From positions 194,618,001 to 194,682,000 of the forward strand of contig OZ024742.1 of NCBI GenBank assembly GCA_964016885.1: DNA of 64,000 nt, read 5' to 3'. How positions within the stretch are numbered: position 1 is the first letter of the stretch; each line of letters opens with the position of its first letter. The position numbers and the translations under genes were made by a program. Below the pieces are notes generated by a model that saw nothing but the letters and a program-made list of their open reading frames with translations, did no database searches and had not been told where the DNA came from. Shown here piece by piece: positions 21,174-22,030 of the stretch. This DNA is from Eledone cirrhosa (taxonomy: Eukaryota).

Positions 21174-22030
21174 TTTTGGATTTAATGCTCTGAAATAGCG
21201 ATATATATGTGAAGACAAACATAGAATATTCGAAAATATTCTGTATGCTTATAATAAACATTTTGAAGACCCAATCGCTATAGAATAGAATACGTCACGT
21301 ATTACAATTTGGGATTCTCGACAAAAGCAAGGGAAGTAACCTACGCGTTTCATTCTTATTAGAAATCATCAGGATTACATATCCAATGCTTTTATCGAGA
21401 ATGACACAGCTAGAGACTTATAGAGCATTAAATCCAAATTCTAATTTCTGCCGGACCGGCTACCGCTCTTTCAAACCAGTTCCTGTACACAGCTAAGTAT
21501 TCTATAAGTCTCTAGCTGTGTCATTCTCGATAAAAGCATTGGATATGTAATCCTGATGATTTCTAATAAGAATGAAACGCGTAGGTTACTTCCCTTGCTT
21601 TTGTCGAGAATCCCAAATTGTAATACGTGACGTATTCTATTCTATAGCGATTGGGTCTTCAAAATGTTTATTATAAACATACAGAATATTTTCGAATATT
21701 CTATGTTTGTCTTCACATATATATCGCTATTTCAGAGCATTAAATCCAAATTCTAATTTCTGCCGGATCGGCTACCGCTCTTTCAAACCAGTTCCTGTAC
21801 ACAGCTAAGTATTCTATAAGTCTCTAGCTGTGTCATTCTCGATAAAAGCATTGGATATGTAATCCTGATGATTTCTAATAAGAATGAAACGCGTAGGTTA
21901 CTTCCCTTGCTTTTGTCGAGAATCCCTAATTGTAATACGTGACGTATTCTATTCTATAGCGATTGGGTCTTCAAAATGTTTATTATAAACATACAGAATA
22001 TTTTCGAATATTCTATGTTTGTCTTCACAT
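21174..22030. mobile_element. Retrozyme-like array 1: ~312-bp HHR monomer, one partial minus copy head-to-head with ~2 plus copies
   Basis: Orientation switch at ~21423; HHRs at 21336-21378(-), 21547-21589(+), 21859-21901(+): GTAATC-CTGATGA-TTTCT-AATA-AGAAT-GAAA-CGCG-TA-GGTTAC; (TA)n both sides. Confidence 0.88.

What the first reader, a model, noticed from the sequence alone, without database searches (positions are those of the whole stretch)
21174..22030. Sister retrozyme array whose differences preserve the ribozyme fold
Seen: an independently inserted ~312-bp variant. Stem I is GTAATC/GGTTAC here and GTAGTC/GATTAC in array 2 (both changes keep pairing through G-U). Loop II is AATA versus AACA, the outer helix swaps A-U for G-U, and the catalytic core is unchanged. 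Inference: selection on RNA structure, so the ribozyme is probably functional and at least two variants circulate.
Basis: partly seen in the sequence, partly recalled or inferred. Interest (0 to 1): 0.75.

Follow-up and report, generated by a model that had tools for sequence, protein, structure and literature searches.

The report
Hammerhead retrozyme array, Penelope-style insertion
This is one copy of a small ribozyme-bearing tandem repeat (an animal "retrozyme") that is very abundant in this genome; it lies as two head-to-head arms inside a TA microsatellite, the insertion pattern of Penelope-like retrotransposons, which likely copied it in from a small RNA, and its differences from the neighbouring array do not by themselves show selection, although comparison across families does.

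Summary
The "array" (21175-22036) is a 0.8-unit inverted arm plus a 2.0-unit direct arm, joined head to head and flanked by (TA)n. Array 2 has the same build.

One replaces the A-U pair at the base of helix II with a U.U mismatch. The "outer helix" swap is private to this array (2 of 102 family monomers).

Substitution density is the same inside and outside the ribozyme domain, and every stem change is one-sided. The two arrays alone therefore do not show selection. Inserted copies also decay in the core.

Selection on the fold does show between families. The genome holds at least 18,000 further hammerhead motifs, and helices I and II and the C3-G8 core pair covary.

In 80 sampled insertions, 63 are head-to-head and none tail-to-tail. 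One end almost always carries a ~26-nt tail, and the flanks are (TA)n. These are hallmarks of Penelope-like elements, which are abundant here.

Verdict: a known kind (non-LTR retrozyme). The useful addition is structural evidence on how such arrays are inserted. RNA expression and cleavage are untested.

The parts
21080..21174 (.). (TA)n microsatellite on the left flank, the presumed target
   Evidence: TRF finds period 2, 47.5 copies. 41 of 54 complete insertions have a TA-rich left flank. The baseline is 5.7% of 20-nt windows in this window.
21175..21424 (-). Inverted arm of 0.8 unit (unit positions 250 down to 1). Its outer 3' end is the 'long' or tailed end.
   Evidence: blastn gives 99.6% over unit positions 1-250 on the minus strand. 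Inverted repeat I13 is 255 nt and 99% complementary.
21322..21387 (-). Hammerhead motif of the inverted arm. Predicted cleavage lies between 21342 and 21341 on the minus strand.
   Evidence: Rfam Hammerhead_HH9 scores 19.7 bits, E = 0.3, below the cut-off of 52. The core was read from the sequence.
21422..22036 (+). Direct arm of 2.0 units. It starts at unit position 234 and ends at the 'short' end, position 224 (..CACATATATAT).
   Evidence: TRF finds period 312, 2.0 copies, 99%. blastn rows are.
21538..21603 (+). Hammerhead motif 1: GTAATC CTGATGA TTTCT AATA AGAAT GAAA CGCGT A | GGTTAC. It is type I. Helix III is the palindrome ACGCGT. Predicted cleavage is at 21583|21584.
   Evidence: The extended helix I appears in the minimum-energy folds.
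21850..21915 (+). Hammerhead motif 2. Predicted cleavage is at 21895|21896.
22029..22148 (.). (AT)n microsatellite on the right flank
   Evidence: TRF finds period 2, 60 copies.
23016..24577 (-). Array 2, inverted arm of 5.0 units of the 310-nt type. Its outer end is the short end (unit position 224).
24583..25806 (+). Array 2, direct arm of 3.9 units. Its outer end is the long end (unit position 249).

Best explanation
Window 21175-22036 is one insertion of a 312-nt non-coding tandem-repeat element carrying a type-I hammerhead ribozyme motif (an animal non-LTR retrozyme), laid down as two head-to-head arms in a (TA)n microsatellite; it was likely put there by the reverse transcriptase-endonuclease of a Penelope-like element (PLE) copying a small hammerhead-processed RNA.

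**Shown**
- The motif has the full core, a long helix I and a 4-5 bp helix II. Helix III is only the palindrome ACGCGU, the design that in amphibian retrozymes works as a dimer.
- The unit belongs to a dispersed family with several subfamilies.
- Insertions are head to head, with variable centres and fixed outer ends.
- One outer end carries a ~26-nt tail.
- The flanks are (TA)n.
- Both arms of an insertion carry the same diagnostic variants.
- PLE genes are abundant in this genome. One PLE family ends in the same way: an AT tract, then a tail of about 35 nt, then (TA)n.

**Inferred**
- Arrays are transcribed and the ribozyme cuts out unit-length RNA.
- That RNA, circularised or as a uniform multimer, is reverse-transcribed from both 3' ends of a break in (TA)n and the two cDNAs are joined at the centre. 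Each insertion would then be born as a ready-made pair of tandem arrays.
- Selection for the fold acts only on the lineages that keep spreading. Inserted copies such as this one then decay.
For: **Motif and fold:** (z = -6.5).

**Family**
- 257 scored matches of the 312 type and 444 of the 310 type (the 150 rows listed are all 100% identical).
- A related 319-nt family gave 136 scored matches out of 2244 candidates.

**Further hammerhead families**
- A pattern that excludes these three types found 18,301 matches against 6 for the reversed-pattern control.
- Two narrower patterns found 296 against 0 and 12 against 0.

**Covariation on 16 representative genomic copies**
- 86.7% of cells are paired, against 61.8% in shuffles (0 of 500 as high).
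- The covariation score is 0.741 against 0.236 (0 of 500). Slid controls give 0.05-0.17.
- 12 of 15 pairs change on both sides.
- The core pair C3-G8 reads C-G in 9 rows, U-A in 6 and U-G in 1.
- Helix III stays palindromic across families: ACGCGT, ACTAGT, ACAATTGT, ACCGGT, ACAAGGCCTTGT.

**Architecture**
- 312 and 310 types: of 54 complete insertions, 46 are head to head, 8 are single-armed and 0 are tail to tail.
- Of those 46, 42 have one short end (unit 219-224) and one long end (247-257), 1 is long/long and 0 are short/short. One-sided sign test about 5e-12 (my arithmetic).
- 319 type: of 26 insertions, 17 are head to head and 12 of those 17 are short/long.
- TA-rich flanks occur at 41 of 54 left and 45 of 54 right sides, against a 5.7% baseline.

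**One template per insertion**
- In loci with 3 or more full units, variants are in all copies (21) or in exactly one copy (55), with 9 intermediate.
- 12 arm-fixed variants are shared by both arms.

**PLEs in this genome**
- 150 of 150 scored GIY-YIG matches pass the cut-off, out of 10,597 candidates.
- One 938-aa open frame has RVT_1 plus a C-terminal GIY-YIG domain.
- 7 of 12 GIY-YIG loci carry a hammerhead motif roughly 450 nt downstream. They end ..TTTTCATATAT(AT)n, with or without a ~35-nt tail, in (TA)n.

**Literature**
- PLE hallmarks are partial tandems, an adjacent inverted 5'-truncated copy, a 30-40 bp tail at one end only, and a (TA)n bias (PMC8557442, passages; PMC3846280, passages).
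- Retrozyme definition and dimeric hammerheads: PMC7229834 (passages).
Against: - No RNA evidence. No listed run is on record as RNA, and the one guessed RNA run that I laid gave nothing.
- Rfam does not call these motifs at gathering score. Self-cleavage is untested.
- This family has U.U at the 10.1-11.1 pair, which may weaken the ribozyme.
- No sequence similarity was found between the unit and the PLE ends I looked at. These were 12 GIY-YIG loci of 10,597 candidates and the window's own PLE-like element (the whole-window blastn hit only the two arrays). The partner is therefore not identified.
- The strict one-tail rule is not explained by simple priming from both (TA)n ends. That would predict short/short insertions, and none was seen.
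- Sampled loci were the best-scoring places of capped searches, not a random sample.
- Rows for the covariation count were chosen by me (15 of 50 motif types; I kept those whose helix III read as a palindrome).
- One helix II pair was forced by the search patterns in 9 of 16 rows.
- All structural evidence comes from one assembly. Public contigs did not show a piece bridging this array's centre, which is no evidence either way.
Confidence: 0.7

Rival explanations
1. The specific differences between array 1 and array 2 are compensated changes that demonstrate purifying selection on the ribozyme fold, so both arrays encode working ribozymes.
For: The core heptamer and GAAA are identical. One true double change does exist between the two units (C113-G153 to U-A), but it lies outside the ribozyme.
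Against: The density of differences is the same inside and outside the domain (6/88 against 14/224). The stem changes are single transitions opposite U or G. Position 103 is private to array 1 (2 of 102) and position 85 is polymorphic. Position 10.1 changes A-U to U.U. Inserted copies of the same families carry core and stem-breaking changes.
Confidence: 0.12
2. The unit is not an independent non-autonomous element. It is merely the terminal repeat (pLTR) of a longer autonomous Penelope-like element, seen here as heavily 5'-truncated insertions.
For: PLE insertions are typically truncated, tandem and inverted. Earlier notes of this scan reached that verdict for hammerhead-bearing inserts in other genomes. 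A PLE family in this genome carries a related hammerhead in its 3' region, with the U3-A8 core and a GCAU/AUGC helix II like the 319-nt family.
Against: Arms hold up to 12.4 complete head-to-tail units (median 2.8) with no coding sequence between them in any of 54 complete insertions. Unit length is exact: 102 of 103 monomers are 312 nt. No PLE locus examined shares sequence with the unit itself.
Confidence: 0.1
3. Ordinary satellite or fold-back DNA. The arrays and their palindromic form arise at the DNA level by unequal crossing-over, hairpin-capped breaks or a fold-back DNA transposon, and the hammerhead is a relic.
For: The repeat is tandem, AT-rich (34.6% G+C) and flanked by microsatellites. 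About 6 of 46 centres lie at the unit's own hairpin (unit positions 142-181), where a DNA fold-back is conceivable.
Against: There are dozens of dispersed loci with different centres and arm lengths but the same two outer end points and one-sided tail. Variants are shared by all units of both arms. The 310-nt type is identical across many chromosomes. The hammerhead helices covary between families. A cut-and-paste element would keep one internal structure.
Confidence: 0.05
4. The inverted arms are assembly artefacts of long-read chimeras, and the real loci are simple direct arrays.
For: All architecture data come from one assembly. No listed public contig bridges the centre of array 1 (not evidence either way).
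Against: Random chimeras would not give 63 head-to-head against 0 tail-to-tail insertions, a one-tail rule (42 of 46) or ends always in (TA)n across three families. The same architecture is described for PLEs in other animals.
Confidence: 0.03

Closest known systems
Metazoan non-LTR retrozymes (Cervera and de la Pena 2020, PMC7229834; passages read)
   Same: A type-I hammerhead sits inside short tandem repeats (150-450 bp). G+C is low. The element is multi-copy and dispersed, with no LTR, PBS or PPT and no ORF. The unit is predicted to be highly self-paired. The weak palindromic helix III matches the amphibian motifs that act as dimers. A U.U mismatch at the base of helix II is reported for axolotl HHR_Amex2.
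   Different: Expression, circular RNA and cleavage are not shown here. Word searches of that paper found 'inverted' 0 times and 'microsatellite' 0 times. The head-to-head arms, one-sided tail and (TA)n target seen here are therefore not part of its description.
Insertion architecture of endonuclease-bearing Penelope-like elements (Arkhipova et al. 2013, PMC3846280; Craig et al. 2021, PMC8557442; passages read)
   Same: Head-to-tail partial tandems with an adjacent inverted 5'-truncated copy (head to head). A 30-40 bp 'tail' sits at only one end. Insertion is biased toward AT-rich simple repeats and (TA)n. Centres vary between copies.
   Different: The unit here is a 310-319-nt non-coding ribozyme repeat present in up to 12 copies per arm, not an ORF with pseudo-LTRs. 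The tail is about 26 nt and is nearly obligatory (42 of 46).
[quoted passage not shown] 2020, PMC7761336, passages; Li, Clavereau and Pollet, bioRxiv 10.64898/2026.07.22.740005, abstract, section 14 and word search)
   Same: Retrozymes and PLEs co-occur in one genome, and hammerheads are found in both.
   Different: Those papers argue from co-occurrence and from pLTR sequence similarity in Xenopus. Here no unit-to-pLTR similarity was found. The link instead rests on the insertion footprint, which a word search did not find in the preprint ('tail' 0, 'twin' 0, 'inverted' only in a reference title). Its supplements were not available to me.
Twin priming of LINE-1 insertions
   Same: An inverted 5' segment is joined to a direct 3' segment through short microhomology. 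This is explained by priming of reverse transcription from both strands of the target break.
   Different: In L1 the two segments are consecutive parts of one linear RNA. Here both arms are multi-unit copies of the same unit, and the two priming points are fixed 26 nt apart.

Membership tests
Hammerhead ribozyme, type I | Conserved core: C3 U4 G5 A6 N7 G8 A9, G12 A13 A14, the A15.1-U16.1 pair, and H17 at the cleavage site | tested here: met
   CTGATGA ... GAAA CGCGT A is present in all three motifs of array 1 and all nine of array 2.
Hammerhead ribozyme, type I | Three helices around the core, with helix I open (type I) and helices II and III closed | tested here: inconclusive
   Helix I has 6 bp plus a 16-bp extension. 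Helix II has 4 bp plus U.U in array 1 and 5 bp in array 2. Helix III is only ACGCGU with no loop, so it can form only between two motifs. The palindrome is kept across families.
Hammerhead ribozyme, type I | Score at or above the curated Rfam threshold | tested here: not met
   There were 0 matches at gathering score. The best match was Hammerhead_HH9 at 19.7 or 23 bits against a cut-off of 52.
Hammerhead ribozyme, type I | Covariation supporting the helices | tested here: met
   In one search, 12 of 15 pairs change on both sides. The covariation score is 0.741 against 0.236 for shuffles (0 of 500). The rows were chosen by me, and one pair was partly forced by the search patterns.
Hammerhead ribozyme, type I | Site-specific self-cleavage | not testable with these tools
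   This needs in vitro transcription of monomeric and dimeric constructs.
Metazoan non-LTR retrozyme | Type-I hammerhead inside head-to-tail repeats of about 150-450 bp, from dimers to large multimers | tested here: met
   The periods are 312 and 310 nt. Arms hold 0.2 to 12.4 units.
Metazoan non-LTR retrozyme | Low G+C (below about 45-50%), no LTR, PBS or PPT, and no coding capacity | tested here: met
   G+C is 34.6% and 34.5%. No ORF of 150 aa or more overlaps 21175-25806. LTR, PBS and PPT were not searched for formally, but the whole element consists of the repeat unit.
Metazoan non-LTR retrozyme | Dispersed, multi-copy, young insertions | tested here: met
   The listed matches lie on contigs C1-C6, C8, C9, C12, C17, C20 and C21.
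Metazoan non-LTR retrozyme | Expressed as unit-length linear and circular RNA | not testable with these tools
   No run on record as RNA holds the stretch. The guessed RNA run X1 laid 0 contigs.
Element mobilised by a Penelope-like element | Head-to-head inverted 5'-truncated copy next to direct tandem copies | tested here: met
   46 of 54 and 17 of 26 insertions are head to head, and 0 are tail to tail.
Element mobilised by a Penelope-like element | Short 'tail' extension at only one end | tested here: met
   42 of 46 insertions (312 and 310 types) and 12 of 17 (319 type) are short/long. None is short/short.
Element mobilised by a Penelope-like element | Insertion into AT-rich simple repeats or (TA)n | tested here: met
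   41 of 54 left flanks and 45 of 54 right flanks are TA-rich, against a 5.7% baseline.
Element mobilised by a Penelope-like element | Autonomous PLEs (RT plus GIY-YIG) present in the same genome | tested here: met
   One search found 150 of 150 scored matches over the cut-off. [quoted passage not shown]
Element mobilised by a Penelope-like element | Sequence shared with the 3' end or pLTR of a resident PLE | tested here: inconclusive
   No similarity was found to the PLE ends in 12 GIY-YIG loci. The only real match was to another retrozyme inserted beside one of them. Only 12 of 10,597 candidate loci were examined. The 3' layout is alike (AT tract, then a tail) but not the sequence.

The most novel reading that the evidence does not exclude
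Satellite-like retrozyme arrays are born whole in one step. A Penelope-like enzyme cuts a (TA)n tract and copies one small hammerhead-processed RNA (circular, or a uniform multimer) from both sides of the break by rolling reverse transcription. Every insertion is then a head-to-head pair of ready-made tandem arrays with exactly one tailed end. The near-obligatory short/long end rule would be a direct footprint of the still unknown Penelope integration mechanism, made readable by a tiny, very young and probably still active element.
Probability: 0.45. Interest if true: 0.7.

Novelty: new member of a known kind. Interest (0 to 1): 0.5.

Why it matters
Which enzyme moves animal retrozymes, and how their tandem arrays arise, are open questions. 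Published arguments rest on co-occurrence with Penelope-like elements and on sequence likeness in frogs.

This genome offers a cleaner handle:
- There are dozens of very young insertions. The 310-nt type is identical across chromosomes.
- Their geometry is head to head, with one tailed end, (TA)n targets and one template per insertion. That matches the Penelope insertion footprint and argues that arrays are made during insertion rather than by later unequal crossing-over.

It also gives a natural test set for hammerhead biology:
- many families with covarying helices;
- a C3-G8 to U3-A8 swap in the core;
- recurrent mismatches at the 10.1-11.1 pair.

For the finding as written, the lesson is methodological. 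Two near-identical copies with G-U-mediated differences cannot show selection, and decayed insertions cannot refute it.

Tried and rejected
- **Rfam.** At gathering score the window gave no match. In E-value mode there were only sub-threshold HH9 matches plus AT-repeat noise such as mir-297.
- **Earlier findings by place.** There is nothing on this genome.
- **RNA evidence.** No RNA holder is listed. Guessed RNA run X1 laid 0 contigs on 21422-22036.
- **Independent check of the head-to-head junction.** On 21385-21465, none of the listed contig pieces of runs X5, X6, X7 and X10 spans 21424/21425 with 31 letters on both sides, and 73 pieces were not shown. This is not evidence either way. The call was unanswered four times before.
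- **RNAcofold of two domain copies.** It gave a domain-swapped duplex and said nothing about helix III in trans.
- **Canonical Rfam hammerheads (RF00163) in the genome.** 19 of 74 scored matches pass the cut-off. They belong to a different, mostly single-copy motif. The two longest ORFs beside them have no Pfam family.
- **Search for the autonomous partner.** blastn of the three unit types against 12 GIY-YIG loci found only another retrozyme inserted next to one of them, plus TA-repeat matches.
- **Depletion of variants in the ribozyme of inserted copies.**
  - 312 family: 14 private variants in 88 nt against 54 in 224 nt (p = 0.18). Core plus helices II and III have 2 in 31 nt against 66 in 281 nt (p = 0.064).
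  - 319 family: a slight excess in the domain (p = 0.02).
- **Circular or linear template.** I looked for enrichment of inner arm ends at the cleavage site. The counts were too rough and BLAST-boundary dependent, so I dropped it.
- **tRNA scan of 20000-27000.** No genes were found.
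Full report
**1. What is at the coordinates**

TRF finds a 312-bp repeat at 21422-22036 (2.0 copies, 99% matches). It lies between a (TA)n tract at 21080-21174 and an (AT)n tract at 22029-22148.

This is not a third direct copy. It is an inverted arm whose sequence is 99% complementary to 21501-21755 (I13) and matches unit positions 250 down to 1 on the minus strand. Throughout, I number the unit from window 21501 as position 1.

Array 2 has the same build. Its minus-strand arm at 23016-24577 has 5.0 units and its plus-strand arm at 24583-25806 has 3.9 units. All units are identical, with 1230-nt arms that are 100% complementary.

**2. The motif**

Each unit carries GTAATC CTGATGA TTTCT AATA AGAAT GAAA CGCGT A|GGTTAC.
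- This is the hammerhead core with helix I open, which makes it type I.
- Helix I is extended by a 16-bp outer helix that closes the whole unit in the minimum-energy folds.
- The 95-nt domain folds at -34.3 kcal/mol, z = -6.5, with 0 of 200 shuffles as good.
- Helix III is only the palindrome ACGCGU without a loop, so it can form only between two motifs. Cervera and de la Pena describe this design for amphibian retrozymes, whose ribozymes cleave much better as dimers (PMC7229834, passages).
- Rfam does not call the motif at gathering score. In E-value mode, Hammerhead_HH9 gives 19.7 bits for array 1 and 23 bits for array 2 against a cut-off of 52.

**3.

The two units differ in 20 of 312 aligned columns.
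- Six lie in the 88-nt ribozyme domain, at positions 39, 50, 60, 67, 85 and 103. Fourteen lie in the other 224 nt. The density is the same.
- Two were missed: position 39 in loop I and position 60, which is hammerhead position 10.1. Array 1 has U.U at 10.1-11.1 where array 2 has A-U.
- The stem I changes are two separate transitions. A50>G lies opposite U86, and G85>A lies opposite U51. Neither is a double change.

In 102 full monomers of the 312 family from 35 loci:
- G103, the "outer helix" swap, occurs twice and is therefore private to this array.
- Position 85 is polymorphic (G 89, A 13).
- Positions 39, 50, 60 and 67 are fixed.

One true double change separates the two units, C113-G153 against U-A, with U.G as the family mode. 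It lies outside the ribozyme.

The U.U mismatch is not a private defect.
- It recurs in other abundant families here (TAGCT..AGCTT, TGCAT..ATGCT). Another family has A.A.
- A 310-like subtype with T at 10.1 exists in this genome (7 copies).
- It also appears in the single contig of run X8.
- A U.U at the base of helix II is reported for axolotl HHR_Amex2.

**4. Larger alignments**

Within families, inserted copies decay without sparing the ribozyme.
- 312 family: private variants number 14 in the 88-nt domain against 54 in 224 nt (p = 0.18). Core plus helices II and III hold 2 in 31 nt against 66 in 281 nt (p = 0.064). They include G8>T and stem-breaking changes at positions 47, 52 and 84.
- The related 319-nt family (31 monomers, 25 loci): the domain carries 64 of 168 events on 95 of 319 nt, a slight excess (p = 0.02), with 7 events in the 12 core positions.

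It is, however, what dead insertions should look like whatever the source element does.

**5. Between families the picture reverses**

The 319-nt family shares the unit's 3' part at roughly 70-76% identity but has a different ribozyme region.
- Its core reads TTGATAA in 45 of 68 domains. Sixteen were not parsed by my regex and 7 carry single-base variants. This is the U3-A8 form of the C3-G8 core pair.
- Its helix II is GCAU/AUGC.
- Its helix III is the 12-nt palindrome ACAAGGCCUUGU.

Further pattern searches found many more motifs.
- A pattern with the same spacing that excludes the three known types found 18,301 matches, against 6 for the reversed-pattern control.
- Two narrower patterns found 296 against 0 and 12 against 0.
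- These belong to further tandem families with periods of 466 and 484 nt and other helices.

On 16 representative genomic copies (alignment A2), the hammerhead pairs give the following:
- 86.7% of cells are paired against 61.8% in shuffles (0 of 500 as high).
- The covariation score is 0.741 against 0.236 (0 of 500). Slid controls give 0.05-0.17.
- 12 of 15 pairs change on both sides.
- The C3-G8 pair reads C-G in 9 rows, U-A in 6 and U-G in 1.

Among the 50 motif types seen in all held loci, I count 28 CTGATGA, 16 TTGATAA, 5 CTGATAA and 1 TTGATGA from the table.

Helix III stays self-complementary across families: ACGCGT, ACTAGT, ACAATTGT, ACCGGT, ACATGT, ACAAGGCCTTGT. That fits pairing in trans.

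Caveats:
- I used 15 of the 50 types, those whose helix III read as a palindrome. I left out 35, mostly single and visibly decayed or unparsable copies.
- One helix II pair was fixed by the search patterns in 9 rows.
- Families are related, so shuffles overstate significance.

**6. Architecture of insertions**

I took the best-scoring places, plus 40 stretches of 8.5-9.9 kb, and mapped units on them.

312 and 310 types:
- There were 57 insertions, of which 3 were cut by a locus end or an N run.
- Of the 54 complete ones, 46 are minus-then-plus (head to head), 6 are minus only, 2 are plus only and 0 are plus-then-minus.
- Of the 46, 42 have one arm ending at unit position 219-224 (..CACATATATAT) and the other at 247-257 (..AAATCCAAAT..). 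One is long/long, none is short/short, and 3 have another end.
- Array 1 is long-left and short-right. Array 2 is the reverse.

319-nt family:
- Of 26 insertions, 17 are head to head, 4 and 4 are single-armed, and 1 is three-armed.
- The end classes are 230 and 255-264, and 12 of the 17 are short/long.

Features common to these families:
- Flanks are TA-rich at 41 of 54 left and 45 of 54 right sides. Only 5.7% of 20-nt windows in this window meet the same criterion.
- Centres differ from locus to locus. They overlap by 0-8 nt in most cases, and about 6 of 46 lie at the unit's own hairpin.
- Two loci 470 kb apart share a centre and a flank and are a duplication.

Within an insertion, variants are in all units (21) or in one unit (55), and rarely in between (9). 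Subfamily-diagnostic variants are shared by both arms (12). The 15 one-arm cases are mostly in arms with a single full unit. Both arms were therefore copied from one template sequence.

**7. Link to Penelope-like elements (PLEs)**

This is the insertion footprint described for endonuclease-bearing PLEs. The footprint is partial tandems, an adjacent inverted 5'-truncated copy (head to head), a 30-40 bp tail at only one end, and a preference for AT-rich simple repeats or (TA)n (PMC8557442; PMC3846280; passages read).

PLEs are abundant in this genome.
- 150 of 150 scored GIY-YIG matches pass the cut-off, out of 10,597 candidates.
- Shorter frames have GIY-YIG alone or with weak RVT_1.

In 7 of 12 GIY-YIG loci, a hammerhead motif with the U3-A8 core, a GCAU/AUGC helix II and an ACCGGU helix III lies downstream of the endonuclease domain. 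That element ends ..TTTTCATATAT(AT)n. One copy ends there. Three copies continue with a ~35-nt tail before the (TA)n. This is the same layout as the retrozyme's short and long ends.

I found no sequence similarity between the retrozyme unit and these PLE ends. The only real match was to another retrozyme, itself head to head, inserted beside one of them. The partner is therefore not identified.

**8. Mechanism**

Shown: the anatomy above.

Inferred:
- Arrays are transcribed.
- The ribozyme, probably pairing helix III between neighbouring units, cuts out unit RNA.
- That RNA, as a circle or a uniform multimer, is reverse-transcribed from both 3' ends of a break in (TA)n.
- The two cDNAs are joined at the centre through microhomology.

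This model accounts for ready-made multi-unit arms, variable centres, fixed outer ends, one template per insertion and exact unit length (102 of 103 monomers are 312 nt).

It does not explain why one end is always short and the other long. Priming of both (TA)n ends on the unit's AUAUAUAU tract would give short/short insertions, and none was seen. I could not tell a circular from a multimeric template.

**9. What is known and what is new**

Retrozymes, their dimeric hammerheads and the proposal that PLEs move them are in print (PMC7229834; PMC7761336; bioRxiv 10.64898/2026.07.22.740005).

Word searches of those three texts did not find the insertion footprint applied to retrozyme arrays.
- In PMC7229834, 'inverted' and 'microsatellite' each occur 0 times.
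- In the preprint, 'tail' and 'twin' each occur 0 times.

I did not search the wider literature for it beyond.

This scan has already met Penelope-type tandem-plus-inverted insertions in other genomes. One of those was a ribozyme-free tandem unit.

My verdict is a new member of a known kind, with a quantified footprint that bears on an open mechanism.

**10. Other data**
- Contigs of a run of one coded organism hold the repeat at very high summed depth.
- Two further coded organisms each give one 340-nt contig of the 310 type. I read this as a 310-nt tandem or circular unit plus 30 letters of assembler overlap, which is inference.
- No expression data could be had.

Noticed in passing
window 14852-17344 (-), with flanks to about 18912: There is an uninterrupted 830-aa frame with no Pfam family. 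Residues 317-478 align to the RT region of this genome's RT plus GIY-YIG ORF (26% over 179 aa, E = 2e-8). By eye its C-terminus looks like a cysteine motif followed by GIY-YIG; that motif is recalled, and Pfam does not confirm it. The 3' ~190 nt after the ORF, and the microsatellite that follows, recur upstream at about 18770-18400. An inverted copy of 18912-18815 lies at about 17555-17455. This looks like a Penelope-like element in partial tandem and inverted form, 3.8 kb from array 1. It shares no sequence with the retrozyme unit.
   Followed up: partly
L223:2438-2871 (own genome C1:267.12 Mb): Another retrozyme family has a hammerhead reading CTGATGA TCGCC AACA GCGT GAAAC AGACTGT. It shares the non-ribozyme part with the 319-nt family (77-80% identity). 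It sits head to head directly in the (TA)n at the 3' end of a GIY-YIG element.
   Followed up: partly
own genome, e.g. L061-L080: A different, canonical hammerhead (..CCTGATGAGTCCTAAATAGGACGAAACATTGTCGGC..) passes the Rfam Hammerhead_1 cut-off at 19 of 74 scored places. It occurs mostly as single copies, and many translated flanks read as TA repeats.
   Followed up: partly
own genome C1:5738331-5752439: A 466-nt hammerhead family forms an arm of about 31 units on the minus strand. One plus-strand unit follows about 100 nt further on. This is the same head-to-head form at larger scale.
   Followed up: no
own genome C1:143.34-145.98 Mb: A decayed hammerhead motif (CTGATGA AGAAC AATA ACCCA GAAAC) recurs, mostly at spacings of about 47-59 kb. 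This suggests it lies inside a large segmental or tandem duplication.
   Followed up: no
window 22150-22240 and 3551-3954: A tRNA-like stretch (GGCGTGTGGCTGAGTGGTTAGAG..GGTTGTGAGTTCGATTC) lies between the two arrays, but ARAGORN calls no tRNA there. A 209-bp repeat in 1.9 copies lies at 3551-3954. Both are probably SINE-like repeats.
   Followed up: partly
window 305-1081 (-): A 258-aa frame has an RVT_1 match (E = 3.6e-17). It is a reverse-transcriptase fragment of another retroelement.
   Followed up: no
whole window: (TA)n and related dinucleotide tracts are very dense, making up dozens of the 107 TRF rows. 5.7% of 20-nt windows are TA-rich. This offers many targets of the kind these elements use.
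   Followed up: partly
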